This document shows positions 4,693 through 53,520 of a DNA stretch of 64,000 bases, one piece after another (within the stretch, counting starts at the first letter, position 1; every line of letters begins with the position of its first letter). Both the position numbers and the translations under genes were made by a program. This DNA is from a virus. The notes under the pieces are model-generated. The model saw only the letters and a list, made by a program, of their open reading frames with translations. It made no database searches and had not been told where the DNA came from. The DNA lies in IMG/VR virus record IMGVR_UViG_3300032242_000550, positions 91,160-155,159 of that record; one strand, given 5' to 3'.

Positions 4693-4699
4693 TATTCTG

Positions 4700-4707: not shown

Positions 4708-4712
4708 CTATT

Positions 4713-5524: not shown

Positions 5525-5548
5525 AAGCACTATTCGTAGTGCTTTTTT
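5525..5548 (+). terminator. Rho-independent terminator with TTCG loop
   Basis: AAGCACTA-TTCG-TAGTGCTT then T run. Confidence 0.85.
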
Positions 5549-5592
5549 GTTATATATACTATTTTGATAAATATATTAAAGGGTAATATATT

Positions 5593-6510
5593 ATGGATTT
5601 TACTGGTGGTATAACAGTTAGTGGTGGATTGAGTGTAACTAGACAACCTCCTCCTACACAAAAAGCTATATTTGGATATGGCTTTGCCGGTGGTAATCAG
5701 TCATTGACCAATTTAGTAAGTGACACCGGTGTAGTTGCTACTGATACTGCAGGTGTGGGCACTGCTAGATACGATCTAGCAGCCACTGGTTATGGAACAG
5801 GTACTGCTATGTTTGGATACGGTCAAAATGTTAATGGTGGATCCAGTTATCTTTCACTGACCAATCTAGTATCAACTACAGGTGTTGTTGCTACTGATAC
5901 TACAGGTGTTGGTACTGCTAGATACTCATTAGCAGGTACAATGTATGGAACCGACAAAGGTATATTTGGATATGGGCGCAATTCAGGTAGTGTATCAATG
6001 ACCAACTTAGTAAGTAATACAGGTGTAGTAGCTACAGATACAACAGGTGTCGGTACTGCTAGAAATTACCTTGCGGCCGCAGGCTATGGTGTTGACAAAG
6101 CTATTTTTGGATATGGAAATGGCGGCAGCGGTGTGACTAATTTGGTATCAAACACCGGTGTAGTTGCTACTGATACAGCACCCGTTGGTACTAATAGATA
6201 TGCATTAGCAGCCGCTGGTTATGGCACTGATAAGGCTATATTTGGATATGGAAATAATTTTTCAAGCGATGTGTCAGTAACCAATAAAGTATCAAATACT
6301 GGTGTAGTTGCTAGTGATACCACAGGTGTAGGAACAGCAAGAAGTTATCTAGCGGCTGCAGGCTATGGATCCGATAAAGCGATTTTTAGCTATGGTAGTG
6401 GTGGAAATAAAACCAATCTAGTAAGTAATACCGGTGTAGTTGCTAGTGATACAACAGGTGTTGGTACTTTTAGGGCTCAGCTGGCAGCTGTAAGCTTTAC
6501 TGGACAATAA
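5593..6510 (+). CDS. Six-bladed Kelch-like beta-propeller protein, family A, copy 1
   Basis: Six ~47-aa repeats AIFGYG-x(n)-TNLVSNTGVVATDTTGVGTAR-xx-LAAAGYGTDK; GATAAATA at 5566-5573. The propeller fold is inferred from repeat length, number and motif spacing. Confidence 0.7.
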   Translation: MDFTGGITVSGGLSVTRQPPPTQKAIFGYGFAGGNQSLTNLVSDTGVVATDTAGVGTARYDLAATGYGTGTAMFGYGQNVNGGSSYLSLTNLVSTTGVVATDTTGVGTARYSLAGTMYGTDKGIFGYGRNSGSVSMTNLVSNTGVVATDTTGVGTARNYLAAAGYGVDKAIFGYGNGGSGVTNLVSNTGVVATDTAPVGTNRYALAAAGYGTDKAIFGYGNNFSSDVSVTNKVSNTGVVASDTTGVGTARSYLAAAGYGSDKAIFSYGSGGNKTNLVSNTGVVASDTTGVGTFRAQLAAVSFTGQ

Positions 6511-6523
6511 TTTCACTCAAAAC

Positions 6524-6547
6524 AAAAGGCTTTACTGAGCCTTTTTT
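6524..6547 (+). terminator. Terminator between propeller cassettes
   Basis: AAAAGGCT-TTACTG-AGCCTTTT-TT; near-identical hairpin at 9456-9479; GATAAATA follows at 6555-6562. Confidence 0.8.
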
Positions 6548-6582
6548 GTTATCTGATAAATATGTTATAGGAATAATATATT

Positions 6583-7521
6583 ATGGCAGACATGACATTT
6601 ACAGGTGGTATAACGTTTACTGGTGGGTTTAGTATAGTCAAACCTCCACCTTCGTATCTTGCATATGCTATTTTTGGATATGGAACCGGAGCATCTGACT
6701 ATTCAATAACCAACCTAGTAAGTAACACAGGTGTAGTTGCCGCAGATACTACAGGGGTTGGTACTGTTAGAAGTCAACTTGCAGCCGCAAATTACGGCAC
6801 AGATAAAGCTATATTTGGGTATGGATACACAACTACCTATGTATCAATGACCAACAAAGTATCAAATACAGGGGTTGTGTCTATAGATACTACAGGGGTA
6901 GGCACTGCTAGAGCAGTTTTAGCAGCCGCTGGGTATGGCACAGATAAAGGTATCTTTGGATATGGGTCCAATGGCGGAGGGCAAACAGCCGTAACCAATC
7001 TAGTATCTAACACAGGAGTAGTAGCCACCGATACTACAGGTGTTGGTACTGCCAGAGAACAACTAGCGGCATCAGGTTATGGAACTGATAAAGCTATTTT
7101 TGGATATGGATACAATGGATCCGCTGGAGTTTCAACGACCAACTTAGTATCAAACACGGGTGTAGTTGCAGCAGATACTACAGGTGTGGGTACTGCTAGA
7201 CTTGGTCTAGCAGCCGCCGGTTATGGTAATTCCGGTCAAGCTATTTTTGGATATGGAAATGGTAATAAATCAATGACCAATTTAGTAAGTAATACAGGAG
7301 TTGTTGCCACAGATACTACCGGAGTTGGTACCGGTAGAAATGGATTAGCAGCCGCAACTTATGGTACAAATAAAGCTATTTTTGGTTATGGATACAATAG
7401 TAGTCTAGGTGTAGTTTCAATAACTAATCTAGTAAGTAATACAGGTGTAGTAGCTACTGATACTACAGGTGTAGGTACTAGTAGATATCTTCTTGCAGCC
7501 GCAAGTTACGGATCCATATGA
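6583..7521 (+). CDS. Kelch-like propeller family A, copy 2
   Basis: Same six-repeat scaffold; N-terminus MADMTFTGGITFTGGFSIVKPPP. Confidence 0.7.
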   Translation: MADMTFTGGITFTGGFSIVKPPPSYLAYAIFGYGTGASDYSITNLVSNTGVVAADTTGVGTVRSQLAAANYGTDKAIFGYGYTTTYVSMTNKVSNTGVVSIDTTGVGTARAVLAAAGYGTDKGIFGYGSNGGGQTAVTNLVSNTGVVATDTTGVGTAREQLAASGYGTDKAIFGYGYNGSAGVSTTNLVSNTGVVAADTTGVGTARLGLAAAGYGNSGQAIFGYGNGNKSMTNLVSNTGVVATDTTGVGTGRNGLAAATYGTNKAIFGYGYNSSLGVVSITNLVSNTGVVATDTTGVGTSRYLLAAASYGSI

Positions 7522-7567
7522 TTTAAAAGATTTAGACATAAATACATTTACTATAAAGGAAAATATC

Positions 7568-7783
7568 ATGATAGATTTAGAGAACATGCCTGCTCCAACA
7601 GAAGAAGAAATTGCACAAGCAAGACTTAATGCATTGAATGCAGATCGTCCAGATTCATGGACATGGGATGAAGCATCAACCTCATATGTTGCGCCAGTAA
7701 GTGTACCAGATGATGGTTATCCATATTTATGGGATGAAGCATCAACTAGTTGGGTACCATTCCCAGATTTCCCTAGAGAATAA
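7568..7783 (+). CDS. Small WDE-motif protein (fibre-assembly-chaperone-like), 71 aa
   Basis: Start reassigned to ATG 7568 after AAGGA; two WDEASTS motifs (18-bp DNA repeat at 7663 and 7729); resembles the C-terminal half of the proteins at 12326 and 36182. Confidence 0.55.
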   Translation: MIDLENMPAPTEEEIAQARLNALNADRPDSWTWDEASTSYVAPVSVPDDGYPYLWDEASTSWVPFPDFPRE

Positions 7784-7788
7784 ATCTA

Positions 7789-8709
7789 ATGGATTTTATT
7801 GGTGGAATAACTGTTAGTGGTGGATTGAGTGTAACAGCGCAACCGCCACCCTCAAGCAAGGCTATATTTGGTTACGGAGGAGGTTATTTATCAATAACCA
7901 ATCTAGTAAGCACATCAGGTATAGTTGCTAATGATACCGCAGGTGTAGGTACTGCTAGAACTGAGTTAGCAGCTGCCGGATACGGTACAGATAAAGCTAT
8001 CTTTGGATATGGTGAAAATAACGGACCACAGTCAATGACAAATAAAGTATCAAATACTGGTGTTGTTGCCACTGATACAACAGGTGTTGGTACTGCTAGA
8101 TGGGCACTTGCAGCCGCAGGATACGGCACTGATAAGGCTATTTTTGGATATGGCTGGAACAATTATGCTACTCAGATGTATGCCTTAACCAACAAAGTAT
8201 CAAATACAGGTGTAGTTGCTACTGACACAGGTGGTGTAGGTACTATCAGAACTGCACTAGCAGCCGCAACTTATGGAACTGATAAAGCTATATTTGGATA
8301 TGGATACAATAACTATTCTTCTACTATATATTCTCTGACTAATTTAGTATCAAACACTGGTGTTGTTGCCACTGATACTAGTGGTGTCGGTACTGCTAGA
8401 TATCAAATTGCGGCGGCTGGTTACGGCAGTGATAAAGCTATATTTGGATATGGAACTACTGGCGCATCAACAGCAATAACCAACAAAGTATCAAATACAG
8501 GAGTTGTTGCGAGTGATACAACAGGTGTCGGTACTGCTAGGCCAGGACTAGCGGCTGCTGGCTATGGGGTTGATACTGCTATATTTGGATATGGTGGTAA
8601 TCCTGGTCCAACTAACTTAGTATCAAATACAGGTGTAGTTGCGACTGATACTACACGTGTTGGTACGTCAAGAACCGGTCTAGCAGCAGCAAGTTACGGG
8701 CTAGCATAA
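7789..8709 (+). CDS. Kelch-like propeller family A, copy 3
   Basis: Six repeats; N-terminus nearly identical to copy 1. Confidence 0.7.
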   Translation: MDFIGGITVSGGLSVTAQPPPSSKAIFGYGGGYLSITNLVSTSGIVANDTAGVGTARTELAAAGYGTDKAIFGYGENNGPQSMTNKVSNTGVVATDTTGVGTARWALAAAGYGTDKAIFGYGWNNYATQMYALTNKVSNTGVVATDTGGVGTIRTALAAATYGTDKAIFGYGYNNYSSTIYSLTNLVSNTGVVATDTSGVGTARYQIAAAGYGSDKAIFGYGTTGASTAITNKVSNTGVVASDTTGVGTARPGLAAAGYGVDTAIFGYGGNPGPTNLVSNTGVVATDTTRVGTSRTGLAAASYGLA

Positions 8710-8769
8710 ATTTTTACTAGTCCTATAAATCTATTAAATATCTCTATACACAACCTATAGAGAGATATT

Positions 8770-9435
8770 ATGGCATCAAATCTAAATTCAGAATTTAACT
8801 ATCGTTACCAAGTTATTGGTTCAACACCCTGGGAAAAAATCAAAACATTACAAGGCTTCTATGTCGGACGTAAACGTGCCGCTGTATTAGAAGAAGTAGC
8901 TGAACTAAAATATCAAGCTAAACTTGAAGAACTAAAACATTTAAAAACAGTTCCAGCATTACCACATATATTGCTTAATTTACAAGCAGAAATCATTGAG
9001 TTAGAATCACATTTAGATGACCAAAAACATGCATTTGAGCTTAATCGTAAAGAGATTAAGATATTAGAAAAACTTATGGCTGAACTATATGCTGAAGTTG
9101 AACCAACACGATTGAAACATCCAGATGGTACACCATATAGTGATGATGAGATGTTTGAAGCCAATGCTAATTATGAATTTACCGTAACAGTTGGTCGTGA
9201 GATACAATCTGAGATTATTGCTATGGGTAGACCTAGTCCAGCCAAGTTATTGAATGCTATGAGTAATCCAGAGACGTTACAATCATTAATGATGATTGGT
9301 CTTATACCACAAGGTACAGTGTTATTAGAGCAGAAAGACATTATGTTAGAGTTAACCAATCAGCAGCCTGTTGTTGAACCTGCAAAAGAGTTAGAAACTT
9401 CCACACCTAAGAAGAAGATAAAAAGAACAAAGTAA
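8770..9435 (+). CDS. Coiled-coil partner protein embedded in the propeller array, function unknown
   Basis: Heptad-rich E/K/L helices; ATTAAATA at 8733-8740; remote similarity to the C-terminal half of ORF 49550. Confidence 0.6.
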   Translation: MASNLNSEFNYRYQVIGSTPWEKIKTLQGFYVGRKRAAVLEEVAELKYQAKLEELKHLKTVPALPHILLNLQAEIIELESHLDDQKHAFELNRKEIKILEKLMAELYAEVEPTRLKHPDGTPYSDDEMFEANANYEFTVTVGREIQSEIIAMGRPSPAKLLNAMSNPETLQSLMMIGLIPQGTVLLEQKDIMLELTNQQPVVEPAKELETSTPKKKIKRTK

Positions 9436-9455
9436 TATCTATATACTTTACATAC

Positions 9456-9479
9456 AAAAGGCTCTACGGAGCCTTTTTT
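9456..9479 (+). terminator. Terminator with C(TACG)G tetraloop
   Basis: AAAAGGCTC-TACG-GAGCCTTTT-TT, immediately followed by CATAAATA at 9480-9487. Confidence 0.85.
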
Positions 9480-9506
9480 CATAAATAGATTAAAGGATAA
9501 CATATT

Positions 9507-10430
9507 ATGGATATTGGTGCAGGAATAACATTTGGTGCTGGGGTTAATATTGTTTATATACCTCCACCAACAAGTAAAGCTATCTTTGGATATGGTGTAA
9601 CTAGTGTTTATGTATCAATGACCAATCTTGTAAGTAACGCAGGTGTAGTTGCTACTGATACAACCGGTGTAGGTACAATAAGATCCACTCTTGCAGCCGC
9701 AACTTATGGTACGGATAAGGCTATATTTGGATATGGGGATGCCGGATCACCGGTATCTGTATCTAACAAGGTATCAAACACGGGTGTAGTTGCTACAGAT
9801 ACTACTGGTGTAGGTACTGCTAGACAATTATTAGCGGCAGCAGGATACGGATCAGATAAGGCTATATTTGGATATGGAGTATTCTACATCCCTTCAACAA
9901 CATATGTATCAATAACTAACCTAGTAAGTAATACAGGCGTAGTTGCATCTGACACTACTGGGGTAGGAACTGCTAGACAAAATCTTGCAGCAGCCGGTTA
10001 CGGAACTGATAAAGCTATATTTGGATATGGAAGTAATGGTTCGGGTTATGTATCAATGACCAATCTAGTATCAAATACAGGAGTAGTTGCTACTGATACA
10101 ACAGGTGTAGGTACTGCTAGGAGCGCACTTGCAGCCGCAACTTATGGTATTGATAAAGCTATATTTGGATACGGAACTACAAAAGTTACTAATTTAGTAA
10201 GTAACACAGGCGTAGTTGCAACTGATACTATCGGTGTAGGTACTACTAGAAATTATATTGCAGCCGCAGGTTATGGAGTTGATACTGCTATATTTGGATA
10301 TGGAACATCTAGTGGAACGGATGTATCAATAACTAATAAAGTATCAAACACCGGTGTAGTTGCAAACGATACTACAGGTGTAGGTACTGCTAGAAATGGT
10401 TTATCAGCGGCAAGTTACGGACTAGCATAA
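9507..10430 (+). CDS. Kelch-like propeller family A, copy 4
   Basis: Six repeats; N-terminus MDIGAGITFGAGVNIVYIPPP. Confidence 0.7.
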   Translation: MDIGAGITFGAGVNIVYIPPPTSKAIFGYGVTSVYVSMTNLVSNAGVVATDTTGVGTIRSTLAAATYGTDKAIFGYGDAGSPVSVSNKVSNTGVVATDTTGVGTARQLLAAAGYGSDKAIFGYGVFYIPSTTYVSITNLVSNTGVVASDTTGVGTARQNLAAAGYGTDKAIFGYGSNGSGYVSMTNLVSNTGVVATDTTGVGTARSALAAATYGIDKAIFGYGTTKVTNLVSNTGVVATDTIGVGTTRNYIAAAGYGVDTAIFGYGTSSGTDVSITNKVSNTGVVANDTTGVGTARNGLSAASYGLA

Positions 10431-11453
10431 AAATAAAAGGATAACATATTATGGATATTGGTGCAGGAATAACATTTGGTCAGGGTGTGAATATTGTTTA
10501 TATACCTCCACCAACAAGTAAAGCTATATTTGGATTTGGATATAGTACTACTTTTACAAATATAACTAATTTAGTCTCAACCACAGGTGTAGTAGCTACT
10601 GATACCACAGGGGTAGGTACTGTTAGACAAGGACTTGCAGCGGCAGGTTACGGAACAGATAAAGCTATTTTTGGATTTGGTGACTACTACTCCTTTGGCA
10701 ACGATTATTTCTCAATAACCAATCTAGTATCAAATACCGGTGTAGTAGCCGCAGACAACGGAACGGTTGGTCTTGCAAGAGGCTGGCTCGCCGCTACAGG
10801 TTACGGTACTGATAAAGCTATTTTTGGATTTGGAGTTAATTACGGCGGTGGGCGTAGTGAAACTAATCTAGTATCAAACACCGGTGTAGTTGCAACTGAT
10901 ACCGCTGGTGTAGGGTTTGCTAGACGATATCTAGCAGCCGCAAGATATGGAACTGATAAAGCTATATTTGGATATGGCGGCGGTGCCTCTTGGTATTCAA
11001 TGACCAATTTAGTATCAAATACTGGTGTAGTTGCTAGTGATACCACTGGTGTAGGTACTGCTAGGATGTACTTAGCAGCCGCAGGGTATGGCAATGATAA
11101 AGCTATATTTGGTTATGGCTCATCTATATCCGGAGTACAATCATTAACAAATTTAGTAAGTAACACCGGTGTTGTTTCTACCGATACAACCGGAGTCGGT
11201 ACTGCTAGAAATGCATTAGCAGCCGCAAGTTATGGTGTTGATACTGCTATTTTTGGTTATGGATCCGGACCAACTGCAATAACCAATTTAGTTTCAAACA
11301 CCGGTGTTGTTTCTACCGATACAACCGGGGTTGGTACTGCTAGAACCGGATTAGCAGCCTCAAATTATTCAACATAAAATCGCAACACAAAATAAAAGGA
11401 TAACATATTATGGATATTGGTGCAGGAATAACATTTGGTCAGGGTGTGAATAT
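10430..11453 (+). repeat. 65-bp exact direct repeat covering the RBS and first 14 codons of two different genes
   Basis: AAAATAAAAGGATAACATATTATGGATATTGGTGCAGGAATAACATTTGGTCAGGGTGTGAATAT at 10430-10494 and 11389-11453; 45 bp of it also at 9492-9536. Confidence 0.95.
10451..11377 (+). CDS. Kelch-like propeller family A, copy 5 (aromatic-rich loops)
   Basis: Six repeats, three of them with FGFG; loops such as DYYSFGNDYF. Confidence 0.7.
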   Translation: MDIGAGITFGQGVNIVYIPPPTSKAIFGFGYSTTFTNITNLVSTTGVVATDTTGVGTVRQGLAAAGYGTDKAIFGFGDYYSFGNDYFSITNLVSNTGVVAADNGTVGLARGWLAATGYGTDKAIFGFGVNYGGGRSETNLVSNTGVVATDTAGVGFARRYLAAARYGTDKAIFGYGGGASWYSMTNLVSNTGVVASDTTGVGTARMYLAAAGYGNDKAIFGYGSSISGVQSLTNLVSNTGVVSTDTTGVGTARNALAAASYGVDTAIFGYGSGPTAITNLVSNTGVVSTDTTGVGTARTGLAASNYST

Positions 11454-12258
11454 AACACCGCAACCACCTTCAATTACATTTCTTATAATAGCAGGTGGAG
11501 GAGGCGGTGGTAGTTACGGCGGTAGCGGTGGCGGCGCAGGTGGTTATATCACTACCACTGCAGCCTATGCGCCAGGGACGGTTTATACGGTTACTGTTGG
11601 CGCAGGTGGGACAGGTGGTACAGCATTTGATAAAGGTACTAGCGGGGCAAATAGTTCCGTTACAGGCTTTACTACTGCAGTGGGAGGTGGTGCTGGATCT
11701 GGCGCATTTAGTGCTGCTTTAAGTGGTGGTTCAGGAGGCGGTGCCGGTTACCCATCAAGTCCAACTGGAGGTTCAGGCATAATAGGACAAGGATTTGCTG
11801 GTGGTTCAAGTGGAGGTCAACTTTACATTGGCTCTGGTGGCGGCGGCTCTAGTGGTGTTGGTATTGACAGTGGTACTTCACCAACATATATTGCAGGAAA
11901 TGGTGGGCCTGCTACTGCATCAATAATTACGGGTGCTTCCGTATATCGAGCCGGTGGCGGTGGCGGTGGCGTTGGCATCACAGCAGGCGGCACCGCCGGT
12001 AGTGGCGGTGGCGGTGGGGCAGGAAACGGTGGCAATCAAAGCGCCGCTCCTACTGCTGGAGCAGTAAACACCGGTAGTGGTGGAGGTGGCTCGGGTAGTG
12101 GTGCCGGTTATACTGGCGCTGCGGGTGGATCAGGTGTGGTTATAATATCAGTACCAAGTACTTCCTACAGCGGTACAACCACCGGTTCACCTACAGTAAT
12201 AACTTCTGGCAGTAATACTATTATGCAATTTAATTCATCGGGAAGTTATACATCGTGA
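11410..12258 (+). CDS. Glycine-rich virion/adhesin protein with the shared N-terminal tag
   Basis: FLIIAGGGGGG..GGGGAGG, YTVTVGAGG and GGSGVVII motifs of phage glycine-rich domains. Confidence 0.7.
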   Translation: MDIGAGITFGQGVNITPQPPSITFLIIAGGGGGGSYGGSGGGAGGYITTTAAYAPGTVYTVTVGAGGTGGTAFDKGTSGANSSVTGFTTAVGGGAGSGAFSAALSGGSGGGAGYPSSPTGGSGIIGQGFAGGSSGGQLYIGSGGGGSSGVGIDSGTSPTYIAGNGGPATASIITGASVYRAGGGGGGVGITAGGTAGSGGGGGAGNGGNQSAAPTAGAVNTGSGGGGSGSGAGYTGAAGGSGVVIISVPSTSYSGTTTGSPTVITSGSNTIMQFNSSGSYTS

Positions 12259-13170: not shown

Positions 13171-16100
13171 ATGGCAGCAGATGATTTCAATTCGTTAGGC
13201 GGGTACTCAATTGGTATACCGCCTGTTCCCGTAATTGATGCTAATGGTAATGTTGTTACAAACGTATTAGCTACAAGTGGAAATGTTGCCGCAGCCAACA
13301 TATATGGTGGTAATTATTTTTATGCAAATGGTAGACCCTTCACAGGAGGGGTAGATCCAGGTGGTCCAAATACTAGTATTCAATATAATAACAACACGTT
13401 TTTTGATGGTAGTACAAATTTTACATTTGACAATACTACAAACTTAGTAACAGTACCAAATTTAAATGTAACCGGCACAAGTAATTTAGGCCCTATAGGT
13501 AATATTACTATTGGTGGCGGTAATTCAGGATATGCATTAACTACAGACGGATCTGGCGGATTATATTGGACACCTCCAGGTAGTGGTACTAGTGGAATTA
13601 GTAAAGGTACTAGTAATTTATTAGTTGTTAGTACTAATGGAAATATTGTTGCCGGTATTGGTGGTGTTCCCAACATATTAACAATTTCTACTAATGGAAT
13701 TAATGTACTTGGTAATGTTGTTGCTAATAGATTCGTTGGAAATATATTTGGTAGTGCAAATACAGTAGTTAACAACGCACAGCCAAACATCACTAGTGTT
13801 GGTAATTTAATATCATTAGATGTTGTTGGAAACATTAATGCAGGTAACGTAATAGCAACAACATTTGTTGGTAATTTAATTGGTAGCGCAAATACAGTAA
13901 CTGATAATGCACAGCCAAATATCACAAGTGTTGGTACATTAATAACATTAGATGTTACTGGTAACGCTAATGTAGGTGCATTACTAACAGATAGTATATT
14001 ATATGCTAATGGCACACCTTATGTGTTTACAACTAATGCCGCAGGAAGTAATACACAAGTACAGTATAATAATAATAATGCGTTTAGTGGTATTGCAAAT
14101 TTCACATTTGATAATACTAGTAATACATTAACAGTTACTAATATCATTGCTAATGGAGCAGGATTAACATCATTAACTGGTGCAAACGTTACTGGTGAAG
14201 TAGCTTATGCTAATATAGCTAATAATGTAGCTGTGGCAAATGTTATAGGTATAGGTAATATTGCCACAACAAACTATGACGGAAATAGTAGTAATGTATT
14301 ACATGGTGACGGTACTTGGAGTGCTGACCAAACTAATTATAGCAATAGTAATGTAGTTTCATTATTAAATGCATTTGGATCAAATAATATAACAACAACT
14401 GGTAATATTTCAGCAGGTAATCTTGCTGGAAACGGTTCTGCTATATCATCAATAACTGGTGCAAATGTTACCGGTCAAGTAAATTATGCTAATATAGCTA
14501 ATAATGTAGCTGGCGCAAATGTCTCAGGTGCAGTAGCTTATGCAACCACAGCTAATAGTGTAGCCGGAGCAAACGTATCTGGTCAAGTAAATTATGCTAA
14601 TGTAGCTAATAATGTAGCTGGTTCTAATGTTTCTGGTCAAGTAAATTATGCCGCGGTTGCTAATTCAGTAGCAGGTGCTAATGTTTCTGGTACTGTTGCC
14701 AATGCAACACATGCAACTGTTTCTGACAGTGCAAATAGTGTAGCTGGTGCTAATGTGTCCGGTGCTGTTGCATTTGCGACAACAGCTAATAGTGTCGCTG
14801 GTTCTAATGTTTCTGGCGCTGTTGCATTTGCGACAACTGCTAATAGTGTTGCTGGTTCTAATGTTTCCGGTCAAGTAGGTAACAGTTTAGTTGCTGGTAC
14901 CGTATATACAAATAGCCAGCCAAATATTACAAGTGTAGGTACATTAACTAGCTTAACAGTATCTGGTAATGCTAATACAGGTAACTTGGGTACAAACAAT
15001 TTTATTGCTACAGGCACAGGTAGTTTTGGTGCTAACATCAACATGAACAATAAGTGGATAAACAATGTTGGTTATCCTAATCTAAACACTGATGTTGCTA
15101 CAAAAGCATATGTTGATACGATGATATCTAGTGGTATCAGCTATCATCAACCAGTACAAGTTGCAACTACAACTACACTAGCAATCGCTACAGGTGGCAC
15201 AACTGCTTATATACAACCAAATGGTGCGGGTAATGGTATAGGTGCATATATCAGTACTACAGGTACTTATTTAAATATTGACGGTGCAAATGTACAAACT
15301 GTTGGCACACGTATTTTAGTTAAAAATGAAGCTAATCAAGCATGGAATGGTGTTTACACATATGCTAATACAACCGCTATTGTACGTTCTACTGATACAG
15401 ATGAATATGGCCCGGATAGTGTACAACAATTAAGTATTAATGACTATTTCTTTGTTCAAGGCGGTATTGTTAATGAAGGTGTTGCTTTCATTGTTAATGC
15501 ACCAAGCGGTACAATTATTTTTGGTACTTCAAACATTACATTTAGTCAGTTTAGTACAAGTCAGGTTTATAATGCTGGTACAGGATTAACATTAGATGGT
15601 ACTATATTTAATATCAGTAATACTACAGTTACTTCAGGAAGTTATGGAAACGGTGATCGTGTTGCAACGTTTACAGTCAATAGTCAGGGTCAATTAACAG
15701 CCGCAAGTAATACAGCAATAACAGCAAATGCCGCTAACTTAACTGGCACAACTCTTGCTAGTTCAGTAGTAAACAGTTCACTAACAAGTGTTGGTACATT
15801 AACTATTCTAACAGTATCAGGTAACATTACCGGTGCTAACATATATGCTAACAGTGGTACAATTGGTGCAAATCTATTAACTGGTACATTAACAACCAAT
15901 GCTCAACCAAATATTACAAGTACTGGCACATTAACTAATTTAGTTGTAACTGGTAATATAATTAGCGGCAATGTATATGCTAATAGTGGTACAATTGGGG
16001 CAAATCTATTAACTGGCACATTAACAACATCAGCACAACCAAATGTAACAAGTGTTGGTACATTAACTAATTTGGTTGTTACCGGTAATACAATTAGTGG

Positions 16101-17892
16101 TAATGTATATGCTAATAGTGGTACGATTGGTGCAAATCTATTAACAGGTACACTAACAACTAATGCTCAACCAAATGTAACAAGTGTAGGATCATTGACT
16201 ACCTTAACTGTTATTGGTAATGCTAATGTAGGTAATTTAGGCACAGCTGGATTAATTACTGCTACTGGGAACGTTTCTGGTGGTAATTTGACTACCGGTG
16301 GTGCAGTTGTAGCTACAGGAAATGGTACGTTTGGTAATATCACTACGACTGGTACTGGTGGCAATATATATGGTGCTAATAATATCAGTGCTAATACGTT
16401 TACCGGAGTACTTACAACTAATGCACAGCCGAATATAACAAGTATTGGTACATTAACTAGTTTAATAGTTTCAGGTAATATTACGAGTGGTAATGTATAT
16501 GCCAATAGTGGTACAATTGGTGCAAGTCTATTAACTGGTACACTAACTACATCAGCTCAACCAAACATAACAAGTACAGGTACACTAACTAGCTTAAGTG
16601 TTACTGGTAATGTTACTAGTGGTAATGTATATGCCAATAGTGGTACGATTGGTGCAAATCTATTAACCGGTACACTAACAACTAATGCTCAGCCAAACAT
16701 AACAAGTACAGGTACGTTAACTAATTTAGTTGTTACCGGTAATGTTACTAGTGGCAATGTATATGCCAATAGTGGTACGATTGGTGCAAGTTTATTGAAT
16801 GGAGTATTGACCACTAGTGCCCAACCAAATATTACCAGTGTTGGTACATTAACTAGTATAACTGTATCCGGTACAAGTAATTTAGGTAGTGTGGGTAATG
16901 TAATAATTACGGGCGGTACTAGTGGTTATTATTTACAGACAAATGGATCAGGTGGGTTAAGTTGGTCATCAGTACCAACTGGTACCGGTATCAGTAATGG
17001 TAATAGTAATGTAAATATCCCGGTTATAAATGGCAATGTTACTATATCTAGTGCAGGTAATGCTAATATTGTAGTAATTACTGGTACAGGTGCAAACATT
17101 AGTGGCACATTAAATGTAACTAGCAATATATATGCTAGTAATTTTATTGCAAGCTCAAGTGGTAGTATTACTGGTGCTAATTTAGTATCAGCAAATTACT
17201 TTACAGGTACATTAACAACAGCGGCACAACCTAATATTACCAGTGTTGGCACATTAACTAGTTTAAGTGTTACTGGTAATATCAGTAGTGGAAATGCTAA
17301 TTTAGGCAATAATGTTAGTGCTAATTATTTTACCGGTGACCTTTACGGAACAGCTAATCTAGCTACATATGCAACAACTGCAAATAGTGTAGCAGGGGCT
17401 AATGTATCTGGACAGGTAAGTAATAGTTTAGTAGCAGGTACAGTATATACAAATAGCCAACCAAACATAACAAGTACTGGTACATTAACTAGTTTAAATG
17501 TATCTGGACCATTAGTAGCAAACACATTCCAAATGGGATATGGTGTATATGCGTTTTATTCAACATCTGTATATTTTGCTACTACAGCAAGTACATCTCC
17601 TAATCAAGTTTTATGGAATTATCCGGCTGCAGACTTGACAGCCATTGATTTTACGATTATTGCAACAAATAGTTCTGGTTTAACTAGACAAAGTTGCAAA
17701 ATTTCAGCCGCTATACTAGGAACTACCGTAGCATATAATGAATATGGTGGTTTACATATAAATGGTGGCGTGGGCAGTTTTAGTGTGGTATATAACGGAA
17801 GTGGACCGACTCCAACATTGGATCTAATAGTCACCCCAGACTCGTCGGACGTAACGGAATATAACATGTTAATTTCAAAATATCTGGTTTGA
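13171..17892 (+). CDS. Long Asn/Gly/Thr-rich tail-fibre-like structural protein 1
   Basis: AQPNITSVGTL and ANSVAGANVSG repeats, a DxATKxYVD fibre motif and a GTRILVK domain; GATAAATA at 13131-13138. Confidence 0.75.
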   Translation: MAADDFNSLGGYSIGIPPVPVIDANGNVVTNVLATSGNVAAANIYGGNYFYANGRPFTGGVDPGGPNTSIQYNNNTFFDGSTNFTFDNTTNLVTVPNLNVTGTSNLGPIGNITIGGGNSGYALTTDGSGGLYWTPPGSGTSGISKGTSNLLVVSTNGNIVAGIGGVPNILTISTNGINVLGNVVANRFVGNIFGSANTVVNNAQPNITSVGNLISLDVVGNINAGNVIATTFVGNLIGSANTVTDNAQPNITSVGTLITLDVTGNANVGALLTDSILYANGTPYVFTTNAAGSNTQVQYNNNNAFSGIANFTFDNTSNTLTVTNIIANGAGLTSLTGANVTGEVAYANIANNVAVANVIGIGNIATTNYDGNSSNVLHGDGTWSADQTNYSNSNVVSLLNAFGSNNITTTGNISAGNLAGNGSAISSITGANVTGQVNYANIANNVAGANVSGAVAYATTANSVAGANVSGQVNYANVANNVAGSNVSGQVNYAAVANSVAGANVSGTVANATHATVSDSANSVAGANVSGAVAFATTANSVAGSNVSGAVAFATTANSVAGSNVSGQVGNSLVAGTVYTNSQPNITSVGTLTSLTVSGNANTGNLGTNNFIATGTGSFGANINMNNKWINNVGYPNLNTDVATKAYVDTMISSGISYHQPVQVATTTTLAIATGGTTAYIQPNGAGNGIGAYISTTGTYLNIDGANVQTVGTRILVKNEANQAWNGVYTYANTTAIVRSTDTDEYGPDSVQQLSINDYFFVQGGIVNEGVAFIVNAPSGTIIFGTSNITFSQFSTSQVYNAGTGLTLDGTIFNISNTTVTSGSYGNGDRVATFTVNSQGQLTAASNTAITANAANLTGTTLASSVVNSSLTSVGTLTILTVSGNITGANIYANSGTIGANLLTGTLTTNAQPNITSTGTLTNLVVTGNIISGNVYANSGTIGANLLTGTLTTSAQPNVTSVGTLTNLVVTGNTISGNVYANSGTIGANLLTGTLTTNAQPNVTSVGSLTTLTVIGNANVGNLGTAGLITATGNVSGGNLTTGGAVVATGNGTFGNITTTGTGGNIYGANNISANTFTGVLTTNAQPNITSIGTLTSLIVSGNITSGNVYANSGTIGASLLTGTLTTSAQPNITSTGTLTSLSVTGNVTSGNVYANSGTIGANLLTGTLTTNAQPNITSTGTLTNLVVTGNVTSGNVYANSGTIGASLLNGVLTTSAQPNITSVGTLTSITVSGTSNLGSVGNVIITGGTSGYYLQTNGSGGLSWSSVPTGTGISNGNSNVNIPVINGNVTISSAGNANIVVITGTGANISGTLNVTSNIYASNFIASSSGSITGANLVSANYFTGTLTTAAQPNITSVGTLTSLSVTGNISSGNANLGNNVSANYFTGDLYGTANLATYATTANSVAGANVSGQVSNSLVAGTVYTNSQPNITSTGTLTSLNVSGPLVANTFQMGYGVYAFYSTSVYFATTASTSPNQVLWNYPAADLTAIDFTIIATNSSGLTRQSCKISAAILGTTVAYNEYGGLHINGGVGSFSVVYNGSGPTPTLDLIVTPDSSDVTEYNMLISKYLV

Positions 17893-17945
17893 TTACCGGT
17901 ACATAATTAAGAAAAAGATAAATACAAGCATAAGGACACAATAAA

Positions 17946-20900
17946 ATGGCAATTAAAGCATTCAACTCAGTAGCTGGTTTTTCCGTAGGTGAAATACCCG
18001 CAAATATTATTCTAGCAAACGGCGATATAACGTCCGGTAATGGCACTTTTACTGCAAATATTACTGCAGGTAATGTCAAAACTGATAATCTGTTATATGC
18101 TAACGGAACACCCTGGGATTTTCAATTACCCGGTGGGTCAAATACATATGTTCAGTTTAATGATAACGGTGATTTTGGCGGTAGTGCTAACTTTATCTTT
18201 AATAAGTCAACTAGTATCCTGACTGTTACTGGTAATATTGCAGCTACGAATATCAATGCTGGAAACTTATTAACTGCTAACTATACAAATGCTGTATTAA
18301 CAACTGCCGCTCAACCAAATATTACTAGTGTTGGTACACTAACTGGTTTAGTTGTAGGTAATAGTACAGCTAATGTAACATTTAATACCAGTGGTAATGG
18401 TAGTTTAACTGCTACAGGTAATATCAGTGCTTCAAACTTCATTGGTAACGTTGTTGGTAATATTTCAGGTAATATTGTTATCCCTGGTTCTAATACAGGT
18501 GTTGTGTTTAATGACCAAGGTAATGCTAATACAAGTACAGCATTCACTTTTGATAAAGTAAGTAATGTAGTCAACATTACAGGTAATGCTAATGTTGGTA
18601 ATTTAACAACTACAGGTACTGTATTTGCCCCAGCAGTAGTTCAAAACGCAAGTACATATGATACACGTGTTACATTAACTAGTAGTTCTGGTATAATTGA
18701 AGCAAATACTAATGGTAATGCTACCCAATTCTTACCAACTGGGGCAATACGTTTACCAGCATCCGGTACGATTCAGGCTAACACATCTGATGGTAGTCAA
18801 ATTGTATTACAGGGTGATGCTTCTATCAAGCAATTACGTGGTGGTAATGTAACAATCCAAACAGGTACAGGTGGTACAACTGCTAATACTTGGACATTTG
18901 CACAGAGTGGTGCATTTATTGCCCCGGGTAATATCACTACAACAGCTAATGCTAACGTTGGTAATTTAAACACAAGTGGCACAGCTAATATTGGTGCTTT
19001 AGTAATTTCAGGAACTACTCAAGGTAATTTAATACCTTCAGTAAGTAATACATATAGTTTGGGTAACTCAACAAACTATTGGAAAGATTTATTCTTGTCT
19101 GGTACAACTATTACTATTGGTAGTCAGACAATTTCTTCAAATGCATCTGGTATAGTTATTTCTAATATACTATACACTTCAACTCTTAATACATCAGCTA
19201 ATGCAAACGTTGGTAATTTAGGTACAAGTGGTTTAATTGTTGCTACTGGTAATATTACCGGCGGTAATTTAATAGGACCGCATGCAAATGGTAATAGTAA
19301 TGTTAATATTGCAACTGCAAATGGTAATATCACATTAACTGCTGTTGGTAATACAACGATGACAGTATCTGGTACAGGTGCAAATATCACAGGTACTGCA
19401 AATGTTACAGGTAATGCTAACGTTGGTAACTTAGGTACAACTAATTTAGTTGCATCAGGTACAGGTAGTTTTGGTGCTAATGTAAACATGAACAATTATT
19501 GGATAAACAACGTTGGTTATCCAAGTCTATCAACTGATGCGGCAACTAAAGCATATGTTGATAATATGGTATCAAGTGGTATTAATTATCACGCTCCAGT
19601 TAATGTCGCAACTACAACTACACTAGCAACAGCTACAGGCGGTACAATATCATACACACAACCAAATGGCGCAGCCAATGGTATTGGTGCATATATTAGC
19701 ACAACTGGTACATTTACAAATATTGACGGTGTTAATATTGCTTCAGCAGGTACACGTATCTTAGTTAAAAATGAAGCTAATTCTGTGTTTAACGGTGTAT
19801 ACAACTACACAAACGCAACTGCTATTACAAGAACTACTGATACTGACGAATACGGCCCAGATAGTGTAGAACAGTTTAGTGTTAACGATTACTTCTTCAC
19901 ACAATCAGGTACAATTAATAAAGGTACATCCTTTGTAGTAAGTGCGCCAACTGGAGTAATTACATTTGGTACTTCAAACATTGAATTTAGTATTTTCAGT
20001 ACTAGCCAAGTTTATAGTGCAGGTACTGGTATTGATATTACCGGTACTACTATCAGCATAGCTAATACTGCAATAACTGCTGGTTCATATGGTAATGGTG
20101 ATCGTGTAGCAACATTCACAGTTAACAATCAAGGTCAACTAACTGCCGCAAGTAACACAGCTATAACAGCAAATGCGGCTAACTTGACAGGCACAACTCT
20201 TGCTGGTACTATCGTTAATAGCTCATTAACAAGTGTTGGCAGTTTAACAGGACTAACTGTAAGCAATGCAACTGGTGTAGTTAACTTTACAACTACATCT
20301 AATGTTACATTGGGTGCAGTAGCTAATTTACATATCTCTGGTGGTACTAGTGGTTATGTATTACAAACAGATGGTTCAGGTAATTTAAGTTGGGTTGGTA
20401 TCAACTCAGCAGGTGTCAGTAATGGTAACAGTAATGTAAGTATCCCAGTAGCAAATGGTAACGTTAATATTAGCGCAGCCGGTAATGCTAATGTATTGGT
20501 AGTTACAGGTACTGGCGCAAACGTTACTGGTAATGCAAACATTACAGGTAACTTAAGTTTAGGTAGTGGGTCAGGTGGTAACTTAACAGGCGCTAATAAC
20601 ATTAGTGCTAACACATTCACTGGTACACTAACAACTAATGCACAACCAAATATTACAAGTGTTGGTACACTAACAAGTTTAGCTGTTACAGGTAATATCA
20701 CTGGTGGTAATGCTAACGTTACTGGTCAATTAATTTCTACAGTCGCTACAGGTACAGCTCCATTAGTAGTTACATCAACTACAACAGTTGCTAACTTGGC
20801 AGCAGCCACAGCAACAACAGCTGGTACAGTTACAACGGCAGCACAGCCAAATATTACAAGTGTTGGTAGTTTAACAGGACTAACAGTAAGCAACGCAACT

Positions 20901-23630: not shown

Positions 23631-24880
23631 TGACATTAAAGGCACTCAATTCGGTATACGGATATAGCGTTGGTACGCCCGGTGGCGTGTCCAGCGTTAT
23701 TGATGCTAGCGGAAATCTTTTAAATACTTCTGCCAATACATTGTATGTAGGTAAGAACGGTAATGATAGTAATAACGGTAGTATTAACAATCCATTTTTA
23801 ACTATTAAAGCCGCATTGGCTGCAGCCTCAGCCGGTGGTTATTCAGTACATGTAGCACCCGGTACCTACACCGAAGCAAATCCCATTACGATACCATCAA
23901 ACGTATCATTAATGGGTGATAATTTAAGAAACGTAACAGTAATACCACAAACTCCAGCAAGTGATTTGTTTTATGTAACTAGTGGTTGTTATGTTTGGGG
24001 AATTACAATTAAAAACTATACAGCTAATGGATTTAGTTTTAACCCATCAACTCCTACACAAAACGTATATGTAAGCCCATATATACAGAATTTAACATCT
24101 AGCACTACTACAGGTACCGCAGTATATATTGATGGTAATAATGTAAGTAGTACCAGTACTAAGGCAATGATTGTTGGATTCTTTACCATTATTAATCAAG
24201 GTGGACAAGGTATACATGTTTTAAATTCAGGATACACTCAATTAGTTAACATATATACCATTGCATGTGATATTGGTATACATGTAGAGTCCGGTGGATT
24301 TTGTACATTAAATGGTAGTGATTGTTCAATTGGTAATTATGGTTTAGTAGCTGAAGGTTATGGACCACTACAAACATCTGGTTCATTAGTATCACAAACA
24401 AATGGTGTATTTATAATAGATACTTTAACTAATGGTCAACCACATGTAAATACTATTATGATTATTGATGGGGATTCTACGTATTATACGATTGATACTA
24501 TACTACCTAATCAGCCTAGTGCTGGAAAATCAACAGTTGTGATACAACAGATATATACTAAAACACCTTCTGCCGGAACAACAGTTTCATTTTATACTAG
24601 AAGTTCAATTATAGCCAGTGCTCATACGTTTGAATATGTTGGTGCAGGAACTAATCCAGCTACTGCATTACCGCAATATGGCGGTATACCAATTGAAGCT
24701 AATGAAGTTACAGCTACTGGTGGCGGGGTAATAACATTTACAAGCACAGATCAAAAGGGAAATTTTAAAGTTGGCCAAGGGTTTACTATCAATCAAGCTA
24801 CAGGAACTATTACCGGTAATGACTTTTATGAAAGTTTATTTGCCCAAATGACTCCGTTTATATTAGCACTGGGTTATTAA
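23630..24880 (+). CDS. Right-handed beta-helix (pectin-lyase-like) virion protein
   Basis: LYVGKNGNDSNNGSINNPFLTIKAAL...VHVAPGTYTE...GDNLR; start overlaps the upstream stop (TAATG). Confidence 0.7.
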   Translation: MTLKALNSVYGYSVGTPGGVSSVIDASGNLLNTSANTLYVGKNGNDSNNGSINNPFLTIKAALAAASAGGYSVHVAPGTYTEANPITIPSNVSLMGDNLRNVTVIPQTPASDLFYVTSGCYVWGITIKNYTANGFSFNPSTPTQNVYVSPYIQNLTSSTTTGTAVYIDGNNVSSTSTKAMIVGFFTIINQGGQGIHVLNSGYTQLVNIYTIACDIGIHVESGGFCTLNGSDCSIGNYGLVAEGYGPLQTSGSLVSQTNGVFIIDTLTNGQPHVNTIMIIDGDSTYYTIDTILPNQPSAGKSTVVIQQIYTKTPSAGTTVSFYTRSSIIASAHTFEYVGAGTNPATALPQYGGIPIEANEVTATGGGVITFTSTDQKGNFKVGQGFTINQATGTITGNDFYESLFAQMTPFILALGY

Positions 24881-24899
24881 GAAGAAATAAAGGAAAATC

Positions 24900-25235
24900 A
24901 TGCCAGCAGCATTAAATAATTTTAAAACAACATTAGCAAATATAACAACTACAACTGCTAATGTTTATACTCCACCTGTGGGATATGCCACAGTAGTTTT
25001 AATGGCGCAGGTAAGTAACAAAGGTTCGGGCACTATTCAAATAACTGCCAACGTGTATAGAAGTGGAGCTACCACATCATTAATTAATCAAGCGAGTATA
25101 CCGGTTAATGATGCTATTAGTGTATTGACAGGGAGATTGATTTTAAATTACGGAGATACGCTACAATTTGTTAGTAGTGATAATACTAGCGCACAACTAG
25201 TTTTAAGTTATTTAGAAACATTGATAACAGGATAA
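24900..25235 (+). CDS. Small beta-rich structural protein, 111 aa
   Basis: VYTPP..ATVV..QVSN...IPVNDA..LILNYGDTL; resembles ORF 30037; AAGGA RBS. Confidence 0.6.
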   Translation: MPAALNNFKTTLANITTTTANVYTPPVGYATVVLMAQVSNKGSGTIQITANVYRSGATTSLINQASIPVNDAISVLTGRLILNYGDTLQFVSSDNTSAQLVLSYLETLITG

Positions 25236-25236
25236 T

Positions 25237-30036: not shown

Positions 30037-30366
30037 ATGGCAATCACATATAAAGTTTTAGGACAAAGTAATCCAGCAGCAAATACAAATACAACATTGT
30101 ATACGGTACCATCAGCAACATCTGCAGTTTGTAGTACACTGGTAATATGTAACCAGGCAGCGAGTGCGGCAACATTTCGTGTTGCGATACGCCCAGCTGG
30201 TGCAGCAATAGCAACACAACATTATACTTCATATGATACTAATATAAATGCTAATGACAGTATTACATTAACAATAGGTATAACACTAGCTACAACTGAT
30301 GTAGTTACAGTAAGAGCTAACACAACAACAGTTAGTTTTAATTTATTTGGATCAGAACTAACATGA
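30037..30366 (+). CDS. Small beta-rich structural protein, 109 aa
   Basis: MAITYKVLGQSNPAA..TTLYTVP...GITLATTDVVTV...FGSE; overlaps the next start (ATGA). Confidence 0.65.
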   Translation: MAITYKVLGQSNPAANTNTTLYTVPSATSAVCSTLVICNQAASAATFRVAIRPAGAAIATQHYTSYDTNINANDSITLTIGITLATTDVVTVRANTTTVSFNLFGSELT

Positions 30367-47673: not shown

Positions 47674-47674
47674 A

Positions 47675-53509: not shown

Positions 53510-53520
53510 AAGGATAAGTA

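What the first reader, a model, noticed from the sequence alone, without database searches (positions are those of the whole stretch)
5593..11377. Family A propellers: constant scaffold with two hypervariable, CDR-like positions per blade
Seen: 36 blades (30 here, 6 at 35222) keep AIFGYG...TN(L/K)VSNTGVVA(T/S)DTTGVGTAR..LAAAGYGTDK almost invariant. Two sites vary: the loop after FGYG, which differs in length and sequence in essentially every blade (e.g. QNVNGGSSY, WNNYATQMY, DYYSFGNDYF, GNPG), and the two residues after the conserved Arg (YD, YS, NY, SQ, WA, GW, RY, MY...). The loops are rich in Tyr/Ser/Gly/Asn. Established: in Kelch propellers such as Keap1 the loop after the di-Gly and the loop around the conserved Arg form the same ligand-binding face. 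Inference: diversifying selection on a single binding surface.
Basis: partly seen in the sequence, partly recalled or inferred. Interest (0 to 1): 0.82.

Follow-up and report, generated by a model that had tools for sequence, protein, structure and literature searches.

The report
Phage propeller heads with hypervariable face
A large uncultured freshwater-type phage carries at least seven copies of a small six-bladed propeller protein whose framework is almost frozen while one face varies in every blade, and these most likely act as interchangeable binding heads on its tail fibres, though that role is untested.

Summary
Six genes in the window, plus a seventh elsewhere in the 155-kb record, each encode a ~25-aa N-terminal tag, a Pro or Gly linker and six ~47-aa repeats.

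- **Blades:** across the 36 blades the scaffold is 84.5% identical in protein. All 36 loops after FGYG differ, and there are 33 distinct post-Arg dipeptides.
- **Fold:** AlphaFold2 with Foldseek and VIA-align gives a six-bladed Kelch-type propeller (Z 34, rmsd 2.2 Å to KLHL17/Keap1). The two variable sites are the B-C hairpin tip and the D-A connection, which lie on the face Keap1 uses for binding.
- **Scaffold:** it is held by purifying selection, not recent copying (dS ~0.95, dN ~0.13).
- **Selection at the variable sites:** in 15 independent unsaturated homolog pairs, post-Arg dN over scaffold dS is ~1.5 (bootstrap 0.92-2.1). The loops give ~1.0 and the scaffold ~0.2. Diversifying selection is therefore suggested but not proven.
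- **Context:** the neighbours are tail-fibre genes that share a late-type promoter box. Other phages fuse the propeller to the C-terminus of Laminin_G_3, collagen or Mtd_N fibre proteins.

The family has thousands of metagenomic members, almost all viral, and none is characterised. First-stage notes had flagged it in at least five other genomes, without follow-up.

The parts
5593..6510 (+). Family A paralog A1: N-terminal tag, PPP linker, six blades
   Evidence: ORF and blade split; GATAAATA box at 5566-5573 and terminator-like hairpin at 5525-5544 upstream
6583..7521 (+). Family A paralog A2, the protein that was modelled
   Evidence: AF2 pLDDT 78, pTM 0.74; Kelch domains are the top hits, Z 34; GATAAATA at 6555-6562 and hairpin at 6524-6545
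7789..8709 (+). Family A paralog A3
   Evidence: its tag is nearly the same as A1's
9507..10430 (+). Family A paralog A4
   Evidence: 45 bp of 5' end identical to A5 and to the Gly-rich gene
10451..11377 (+). Family A paralog A5
   Evidence: 65 bp (ribosome-binding site plus 14 codons) identical to the 5' end of gene 11410
35222..36163 (+). Family A paralog A6, with a Gly linker instead of PPP, directly downstream of the Laminin_G_3 fibre gene
   Evidence: Relatives such as P0138 carry the same Laminin_G_3 array fused to a C-terminal propeller, and that array is 37% identical over 889 aa to the window's 30363 protein
30363..35147 (+). 1594-aa protein with six Laminin_G_3 domains, the likely carrier of A6 (split form of a fused architecture)
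   Evidence: Pfam; BLASTP to fused relative P0138, E 1e-116
11410..12258 (+). Gly_rich_2 head carrying the same N-terminal tag as A4 and A5
   Evidence: Pfam PF21722; identical 5' DNA; a Gly-rich plus propeller fusion exists in BFVD
48553..49542 (+). Family B repeat protein B1, with the same kind of tag and PP linker
   Evidence: hhalign against family A gives probability 55%, E 1e-4; fold not resolved
52535..54438 (+). Family B repeat proteins B2 (52535-53509) and B3 (53521-54438)
13171..30027 (+). Long fibre genes next to the propeller cluster (13171, 17946, 23630, 25237)
   Evidence: PHROG tail-fibre and baseplate hits; GATAAATA boxes at 13131 and 17917, shared with A1, A2, B1 and B2

Best explanation
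Each family A gene encodes a late-expressed head. It consists of a ~20-aa N-terminal tag, a Pro or Gly linker and a six-bladed Kelch-type beta-propeller closed by its C-terminal strand.

The blade framework is held nearly invariant by purifying selection. One face is built from six protruding B-C hairpin tips and a ring of six post-Arg dipeptides at the start of the innermost strands. That face differs in every blade and every paralog and is the specificity-determining binding surface.

The heads most likely sit on the virion, attached to or beside the tail fibres through the shared tag. They would bind host-surface ligands, probably glycans, so that seven or more paralogs give a multi-specific adsorption repertoire.

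New variants arise in three ways: substitutions at the post-Arg ring, replacement and indels of loops, and blade-sized gene conversion between paralogs (seen in related phages).

Shown: genes, repeats, fold, location of the variability, purifying selection on the scaffold, genomic context, fused architectures. Inferred: virion location, docking by the tag, ligand binding, host-range role.
For: - **Fold:** AF2 model pLDDT 78; the ESM Atlas model of the same sequence has pLDDT 0.89. Foldseek probability is 1.0 with TM 0.74-0.82 to KLHL17, KLHL12 and Keap1. VIA-align gives Z 34 and rmsd 2.2-2.3 Å over ~275 residues.
- **Same face:** in the model's DSSP, FGYG ends strand B. The variable stretch spans the hairpin turn into strand C, and R-xx immediately precedes strand A. 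In Keap1 the D-A and B-C loops form the substrate face.
- **Selection on the scaffold:** scaffold dS 0.95 and dN 0.13 among the 36 blades; nucleotide identity is only 76%.
- **Rates at the variable sites:** post-Arg pN/pS(scaffold) is 1.5, the loops ~1.0 and the scaffold 0.21.
- **Composition:** Tyr 18% and Lys 0.1% at the post-Arg sites.
- **Context:** the cluster lies between the major capsid gene and the tail-fibre genes. A GATAAATA box sits 8-33 nt upstream of A1, A2, B1, B2 and of fibre genes 13171, 17946 and 41985; 7 of the 8 plus-strand hits precede a start codon.
- **Fused relatives:** the propeller sits at the extreme C-terminus of Laminin_G_3, collagen, Mtd_N, fn3 and SBBP proteins that match virion-structural, baseplate and tail-fibre PHROGs.
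- **Split versus fused:** A6 directly follows a Laminin_G_3 gene that is 37% identical to the Laminin_G_3 part of a fused relative.
- **Accessory nature:** most phages with 79-97% identical capsid protein lack propellers at this position.
- **Blade conversion:** exact tracts of 70-123 nt link otherwise diverged genes at different blade positions.
Against: - There is no virion proteomics, binding data or cultured host, and no cultured phage in the INPHARED set has a close homolog.
- The excess of dN over dS at the post-Arg sites is borderline and heterogeneous: 8 pairs above scaffold dS, 5 below, 2 tied.
- The loops evolve at about the neutral rate. Their synonymous sites also exceed the scaffold's (0.35 against 0.26), so misalignment or segment replacement contributes.
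The same-face claim rests on strand topology and on the global Kelch superposition, not on measured residue positions.
- The near-invariance of many polar scaffold residues (TN.VSNTG, DTTGVGT) could itself mark a conserved functional site.
- No blade conversion longer than 36 nt is seen in this genome.
Confidence: 0.55

Rival explanations
1. Multivalent lectin with conserved sites. As in PLL, AAL or RSL-type propeller lectins, the invariant scaffold residues (Arg, Asp/Thr, Asn) form six equivalent sugar pockets. The variable loops are merely tolerated surface, so all paralogs bind the same ligand.
For: The scaffold is extraordinarily conserved, including its polar residues, despite saturated synonymous sites. 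A family profile weakly matches the Photorhabdus PLL2 lectin (E 0.013, in register over several blades). Some relatives carry PF26607 Beta-prop_PLL. PLL lectins bind sugars between blades. Loop omega is ~1.
Against: The Trp residues that PLL sites use for CH-pi stacking have no conserved counterpart here. There are six blades, not seven. A single conserved specificity does not explain seven or more paralogs with wholly different loops, the Tyr enrichment and Lys exclusion at the post-Arg sites, or post-Arg dN at or above dS.
Confidence: 0.2
2. Intracellular Kelch-like adaptors. The propellers act inside the infected cell, binding diverse host proteins for take-over or counter-defence, as eukaryotic and poxviral Kelch proteins bind substrates.
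For: The fold and binding face match substrate-adaptor Kelch domains. Kelch-like proteins are annotated in cultured jumbo phages.
Against: There is no BTB or other adaptor domain. Fusion partners are fibre-type or extracellular-type domains: Laminin_G_3, collagen, Mtd_N, fn3. The genes share a late-type promoter box with fibre genes and are embedded among them.
Confidence: 0.1
3. Structural decoration without specific binding. The heads only coat the capsid or fibres, for stability or shielding, and the variable sites drift neutrally.
For: The cluster lies directly after the major capsid gene. Loop omega is ~1. No ligand is known.
Against: Composition at the fastest sites is strongly non-random. 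The post-Arg rate tends to exceed the synonymous rate. The propeller is terminal in fused fibres. Close relatives lack the cluster entirely, which is atypical for a structural necessity.
Confidence: 0.1

Closest known systems
Kelch-repeat beta-propellers (Keap1, KLHL12, KLHL17; designed symmetric SAKe proteins)
   Same: Six four-stranded blades of ~47 aa, closed by the C-terminal strand. An Arg followed by two variable residues precedes strand A, and hydrophobic residues plus Gly end strand B. The long B-C and D-A loops make one binding face. Z 34, rmsd 2.2 Å.
   Different: No Pfam Kelch_1 match at E <= 1. The strand-B end is G-Y-G rather than GG. The Kelch Tyr and Trp of strands C and D are absent. 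Blades are ~85% identical to one another, a near-symmetry that among the solved-structure hits recalls the designed symmetric SAKe propellers. There is no BTB/BACK partner, and the setting is a phage fibre module.
Fungal HNWD (het-d/het-e) WD40 repeat family (PMC1805685)
   Same: A multigene family of propellers with highly conserved repeats and a few hypervariable residues per repeat on the interaction face. Repeats are exchanged within and between paralogs. Positive selection is reported there and suggested here.
   Different: That family is WD40 with a variable repeat number, intracellular, and homogenised at the DNA level by concerted evolution. In this genome the blades are only 76% identical in DNA, with saturated synonymous sites, a fixed count of six blades and a length-variable loop.
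PLL/PHL seven-bladed propeller lectins of Photorhabdus (PF26607 Beta-prop_PLL)
   Same: Tandem ~47-aa blades with a shared GTD-x-A motif and very similar repeats. There is weak profile similarity, and the Pfam family is found on some relatives.
   Different: Seven blades there, with Trp-lined pockets between the blades. Here there are six blades and no conserved Trp. The closest structural matches here are Kelch domains.
Phage receptor-binding proteins with modular heads (five-bladed propeller platform of phi11-type RBPs; DGR-diversified Mtd)
   Same: A distal C-terminal binding domain on fibre proteins. A propeller with receptor sites is known in siphophage RBPs (PMC12917162). Some relatives start with the Mtd_N domain.
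   Different: A different propeller type. The heads are free-standing, with a short tag instead of a long anchor domain. No reverse transcriptase was found in the record, and the variation includes indels, so it is not DGR mutagenesis.

Membership tests
Kelch-type six-bladed beta-propeller (structural class) | Six four-stranded antiparallel blades forming a closed propeller | tested here: met
   AF2 model; Foldseek probability 1.0; VIA-align Z 34, rmsd 2.2 Å, ~275 residues aligned to Kelch domains
Kelch-type six-bladed beta-propeller (structural class) | Closure by a C-terminal strand completing blade 1 | tested here: met
   The model starts with strand B (residues 27-35) and ends with a strand A-type segment (305-310) after the last Arg
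Pfam Kelch_1 (PF01344) sequence family | Match to the family HMM above its cut-off | tested here: not met
   No Pfam hit at E <= 0.1 for any paralog; no Kelch_1 match at E <= 1 in the whole record
Pfam Kelch_1 (PF01344) sequence family | Gly-Gly doublet plus conserved Tyr and Trp in strands C and D | tested here: not met
   The repeat reads F-G-Y-G ... T-N-L-V-S-N-T-G-V-V, with no conserved Tyr or Trp at those strands. The Kelch motif itself is from my own knowledge.
PLL-like propeller lectins (PF26607) | Match to the PF26607 HMM | not testable with these tools
   The family is absent from the local Pfam copy. Precomputed hits exist on some relatives. A profile against the PDB gives PLL2 at E 0.013.
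PLL-like propeller lectins (PF26607) | Seven blades with Trp-lined sugar pockets between blades | tested here: not met
   Six blades; no conserved Trp in the repeat; PLL features from PMC6943638
DGR target proteins | Reverse transcriptase and a template/variable repeat pair with adenine-specific changes | tested here: inconclusive
   No RVT_1 match in the 155-kb record, which is only ~45% complete. The variable sites differ in length and at all bases.
Highly internally conserved repeat receptors (fungal HNWD type) | Near-identical repeats with hypervariable residues on the binding face | tested here: met
   84.5% scaffold identity against 14-18% at the variable columns; B-C and D-A positions
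Highly internally conserved repeat receptors (fungal HNWD type) | DNA-level concerted evolution of repeats | tested here: not met
   In this genome scaffold pS is 0.54 and nucleotide identity 76%, and the longest out-of-register exact match is 36 nt. Blade-sized identical tracts do occur in other phages.
Highly internally conserved repeat receptors (fungal HNWD type) | Positive selection at the hypervariable sites | tested here: inconclusive
   Post-Arg ratio 1.5, 95% interval 0.92-2.1; loops 1.0
Phage receptor-binding or adhesin head | Distal (C-terminal) domain of fibre proteins, encoded within the fibre module | tested here: met
   The propeller is C-terminal in fused relatives. The neighbours are fibre and baseplate genes. 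There is a split/fused pair with the Laminin_G_3 protein.
Phage receptor-binding or adhesin head | Presence in the virion and binding to a host receptor | not testable with these tools
   Uncultured phage; no proteomic or binding data

The most novel reading that the evidence does not exclude
These phages run a plug-in repertoire of propeller binders. A universal short N-terminal tag would let unrelated heads (propeller A, repeat family B, Gly-rich domain) dock on common sockets of the fibres. The propeller's twelve variable segments would form a paratope-like face that diversifies under positive selection and by blade-cassette conversion among many paralogs. The virion would thereby gain combinatorial, rapidly evolvable host recognition without a DGR.
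Probability: 0.3. Interest if true: 0.8.

Novelty: new variant of a known kind. Interest (0 to 1): 0.62.

Why it matters
If the heads are virion adhesins, this is a large, uncharacterised class of phage recognition modules. There are more than 2,400 significant matches among the candidates scored, about 700 clusters at 50% identity, and copies are dispersed across a 524-kb megaphage contig. Its architecture is unusually clean: a frozen six-fold framework with a defined variable face. That would help in reading host range from metagenomic phage genomes. It would add a phage example of repeat-based repertoire evolution, known so far mainly from fungal immune receptors. It would also offer a naturally symmetric, loop-tolerant scaffold of the kind protein designers build by hand (the SAKe proteins).

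Tried and rejected
- **Cultured phages:** tblastn of A2 against 50,697 phage records found nothing.
- **Pfam and PHROGs:** neither gave a hit on the propellers.
- **Close variants of the window's own genes:** an exact look-up of the six proteins found none in the 15-billion-protein collection. An exact 29-nt tag pattern found no other viral contig. Microdiversity of this phage itself could therefore not be read.
- **Orthologs in close relatives:** 80 loci with 79-97% identical capsid protein held only two propeller genes after the capsid gene. An ortholog-based site test was not possible.
- **dN/dS among the 36 blades:** saturated and uninformative at the variable sites.
- **Polymorphism in near-identical populations:** only about four events (two nonsynonymous changes at post-Arg sites, one synonymous change and one indel in loops, none in the scaffold), too few to test.
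- **Recent gene conversion as the cause of the constant scaffold in this genome:** rejected, because the longest out-of-register exact match is 36 nt and synonymous sites are saturated.
- **DGR:** rejected as unsupported.
- **Family B structure:** pLDDT 41 from a three-sequence alignment, unusable.
- **PF26607:** could not be scanned locally.
- **Prokaryote genomes:** only six hits, all metagenome-assembled genomes of unrelated phyla and several on short contigs, probably mis-binned phage DNA. This gives no host clue.
- **Literature:** searches found no paper on this family; two 'Kelch' hits were an author's name.


Full report
**Setting**

The window is bases 91160-155159 of a 155-kb IMG/VR virus record that CheckV rates 45% complete. 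Its major capsid protein (3403-4599) is T4-like. It is 66% identical to those of jumbo phages such as PA5oct and Vibrio phage 2.275.O. All large genes lie on the plus strand and GC is about 38%.

**The observation**

Five ORFs between 5593 and 11377, and one at 35222-36163, encode proteins of 305-313 aa with six repeats each, 36 blades in all.

- A MAFFT alignment of the 36 blades shows variation almost only in the stretch between FGYG and TN and in the two residues after the conserved Arg.
- Mean entropy is 2.2 and 3.3 bit at those sites, against 0.46 bit for the scaffold.
- Scaffold identity is 84.5%, against 14-18% at the variable columns.
- All 36 loops are distinct (4-12 residues), and there are 33 distinct post-Arg dipeptides.
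- A seventh paralog lies upstream of the window.
- The same pattern appears in a 40-sequence family alignment and in 863 blade segments cut from 165 propeller ORFs of related viral contigs.

**Fold and position of the variable sites**

AlphaFold2 on A2, using the family alignment, gives pLDDT 78 and pTM 0.74. The ESM Atlas holds a model of the same sequence at pLDDT 0.89. Foldseek against the PDB returns only Kelch domains at the top: KLHL17, KLHL12, Keap1 and the designed symmetric SAKe propellers, with probability 1.0 and TM 0.74-0.82. VIA-align gives Z 34 and rmsd 2.2-2.3 Å over about 275 residues.

In the model each repeat reads as follows:
- strand A is LAAAGY;
- a turn is GTDK;
- strand B is AIFGYG;
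- a hairpin holds the variable stretch;
- strand C is S-x-TNLVS;
- an irregular outer segment, NTGVVATDTTGVGTAR, follows;
- the two variable residues come next, then the following strand A.

The chain begins with strand B and ends with a strand A. This is the closure that, from my own knowledge, is typical of Kelch propellers.

The variable sites are therefore the B-C hairpin tip and the D-A connection. In a four-stranded up-down blade these lie on the same face. In Keap1 they are the long loops that form the substrate pocket, while the A-B and C-D loops face the other side (PMC10087726). Because strand A lines the central channel, the six post-Arg pairs should ring the channel mouth, with the hairpin tips around them.

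**Why the scaffold is constant**

Nei-Gojobori counts over all blade pairs give scaffold pS 0.54 (dS about 0.95) with dN 0.13. Blades at the same index in different genes are no closer than blades at different indices. Scaffold DNA identity averages 76%, with a maximum of 87%. The longest out-of-register exact match among the paralogs is 36 nt. The framework is therefore kept by purifying selection on the protein, not by recent amplification or homogenisation in this genome. That degree of inter-blade identity under saturated synonymous divergence is the most unusual feature of the family.

**Is the variation selected?**

Within the window, dN and dS at the variable sites are both saturated.

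I collected 126 unique propeller domains from 300-odd related viral loci and compared all pairs. Most pairs are either near-identical or saturated. Fifteen independent pairs have scaffold pS below 0.36.

| Site class | pN / scaffold pS | Bootstrap 95% interval |
|---|---|---|
| Post-Arg pair | 1.51 | 0.92-2.10, P(<=1) = 0.047 |
| Loops | 0.99 | 0.55-1.32 |
| Scaffold | 0.21 | 0.14-0.29 |

(Figures.) In the eight mid-divergence pairs the post-Arg excess over scaffold synonymous change has a Fisher p of 0.004. Those sites' own pS (0.21) is not inflated, so segment replacement does not explain the excess. Loop pS (0.35) does exceed scaffold pS (0.26), which points to loop replacement or misalignment.

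Composition at the post-Arg sites across 79 unique genes is far from mutational expectation in an AT-rich genome. Tyr is 18%, Gly 14% and Ser 14%, while Lys is 0.1% and Pro 0.3%. Fast change combined with a strict residue filter fits diversifying selection better than relaxed selection. Even so, the formal test is borderline.

**How variants arise**

In other phages, exact tracts of 70-123 nt, up to most of a blade including its loop, link genes whose scaffolds are otherwise at pS 0.38-0.46. These tracts often join different blade positions, and some join blades within one gene. This is blade-scale gene conversion. At about 76% background identity such tracts cannot be chance. No reverse transcriptase is present in the record.

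**What the proteins are for**

The family is large and almost entirely viral:
- more than 2,400 significant matches among 8,000 scored candidates;
- 696 representatives at 50% identity;
- Atlas clusters that are 100% viral;
- only six hits in 185,579 prokaryote genomes, all metagenome-assembled genomes of unrelated phyla.

In longer relatives the propeller is at the extreme C-terminus. It follows one to four Laminin_G_3 domains, collagen repeats, an Mtd_N domain, fn3 or SBBP repeats. These partners match PHROGs annotated as virion structural protein, baseplate wedge or tail fibre.

In the window, A6 directly follows a 1594-aa protein with six Laminin_G_3 domains. That protein is 37% identical over 889 aa to the Laminin_G_3 part of a fused relative. 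This split/fused pair argues that the two proteins work together.

A1-A5 lie between the capsid gene and long fibre genes. A GATAAATA box resembles the T4 late promoter TATAAATA (the T4 consensus is from my own knowledge). It lies 8-33 nt upstream of A1, A2, B1 and B2 and of fibre genes 13171, 17946 and 41985. Seven of the eight plus-strand occurrences in 64 kb precede a start codon. A1 and A2 are also preceded by terminator-like hairpins.

Among 80 related viral loci whose capsid protein is 79-97% identical, only two carry a propeller gene after the capsid gene. In the loci I read, the slot held nothing, one propeller plus a Gly-rich head, or other tagged proteins, so the cluster is accessory.

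BFVD shows more distant Kelch-like proteins in cultured jumbo phages. Some are annotated as virion structural proteins, and there is one Gly-rich plus propeller fusion.

**The tag**

All family A proteins, the Gly_rich_2 protein (11410) and three family B repeat proteins begin with a ~20-aa motif of the type G-G-I-T-x-x-G-G, followed by PPP, or by a Gly run in A6. A5 and the Gly-rich gene share 65 identical base pairs covering the ribosome-binding site and 14 codons. Tags fall into subtypes shared by two or three heads: A1/A3, A2/A7 and A4/A5/Gly-rich. I read the tag as a common docking peptide. This is inference only.

**Comparison with known families**

- **Kelch:** structurally this is a Kelch-type propeller, but it fails the Kelch_1 HMM and lacks the Kelch Tyr and Trp.
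- **PLL lectins:** a profile weakly matches the seven-bladed PLL2 lectin (E 0.013), and some relatives carry PF26607. However, there are six blades and no Trp pockets.
- **Fungal HNWD WD40 family:** this is the closest conceptual parallel. It has near-identical repeats, four hypervariable surface residues per repeat and repeat exchange among ten paralogs (PMC1805685). There, unlike in this genome, the conservation is at the DNA level.
- **Phage RBPs:** propeller-bearing phage receptor-binding proteins are known, for example a five-bladed platform (PMC12917162).

**Verdict**

The adaptive reading is plausible but only partly shown. The functional assignment as fibre-associated binding heads rests on context and domain fusions. 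First-stage readers had noted the same family in several other genomes, without follow-up.

Noticed in passing
window 48553-49542, 52535-53509, 53521-54438: A second repeat family (B) has the same kind of N-terminal tag and PP linker and six ~50-aa repeats (G-W ... RITYATDT ... RGPL). hhalign against family A gives only 55% probability, and the AF2 model was unusable (pLDDT 41).
   Followed up: partly
window 45912-52071: Family B genes sit among a sulfotransferase (47675), a glycosyltransferase (49550), a 2OG-Fe(II) oxygenase (51367) and DUF6445 (46568). These might modify virion proteins, for example the Pro-rich linkers. That idea is pure speculation.
   Followed up: no
window 10430-10494 and 11389-11453: A 65-bp exact repeat covers the ribosome-binding site and the first 14 codons of a propeller gene and of the unrelated Gly_rich_2 gene. 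A4 shares 45 bp of it. Tag subtypes pair up: A1/A3, A2/A7 and A4/A5/Gly-rich.
   Followed up: yes
window 12326-12688 and 7493-7783: Small ORFs matching phrog_7759 (strongly for 12326, weakly for 7493) end in a W-D-E-x-S/T-x-S-W type motif. Each lies just after a head gene. They are possible assembly factors.
   Followed up: partly
window 4689-5489: An HNH homing endonuclease (phrog_655, E 7e-50) is inserted between the major capsid gene and the first propeller gene. One relative (L092) has a similar insertion.
   Followed up: partly
window 13171, 17946, 23630 (gene starts): The long fibre proteins begin with a shared motif (F-N-S-x-G-G-Y/F-S-V/I-G-x-P-P). In style it resembles the head tags: Gly pair, alternating hydrophobic residues, then prolines.
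   Followed up: no
L003, L241, L244, L270, L272 (contig IMGVR_UViG_3300027749_002876, 524,565 bp): A 524-kb megaphage contig carries family A propeller genes at four or more widely separated places.
   Followed up: no
L191 (ORF at offset 1692), L233 vs L041, L070 vs L233: Exact 86-123-nt tracts, each spanning a whole loop plus flanking scaffold, are shared between blades of one gene or between diverged paralogs at different blade positions. This is blade-scale gene conversion.
   Followed up: partly
L082 5050-6877; L091 and L094 after 11194: In phages with 94-96% identical capsid protein, the slot between the capsid and fibre genes holds nothing, or one propeller plus one Gly-rich head. It is a plastic accessory hot-spot.
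   Followed up: partly
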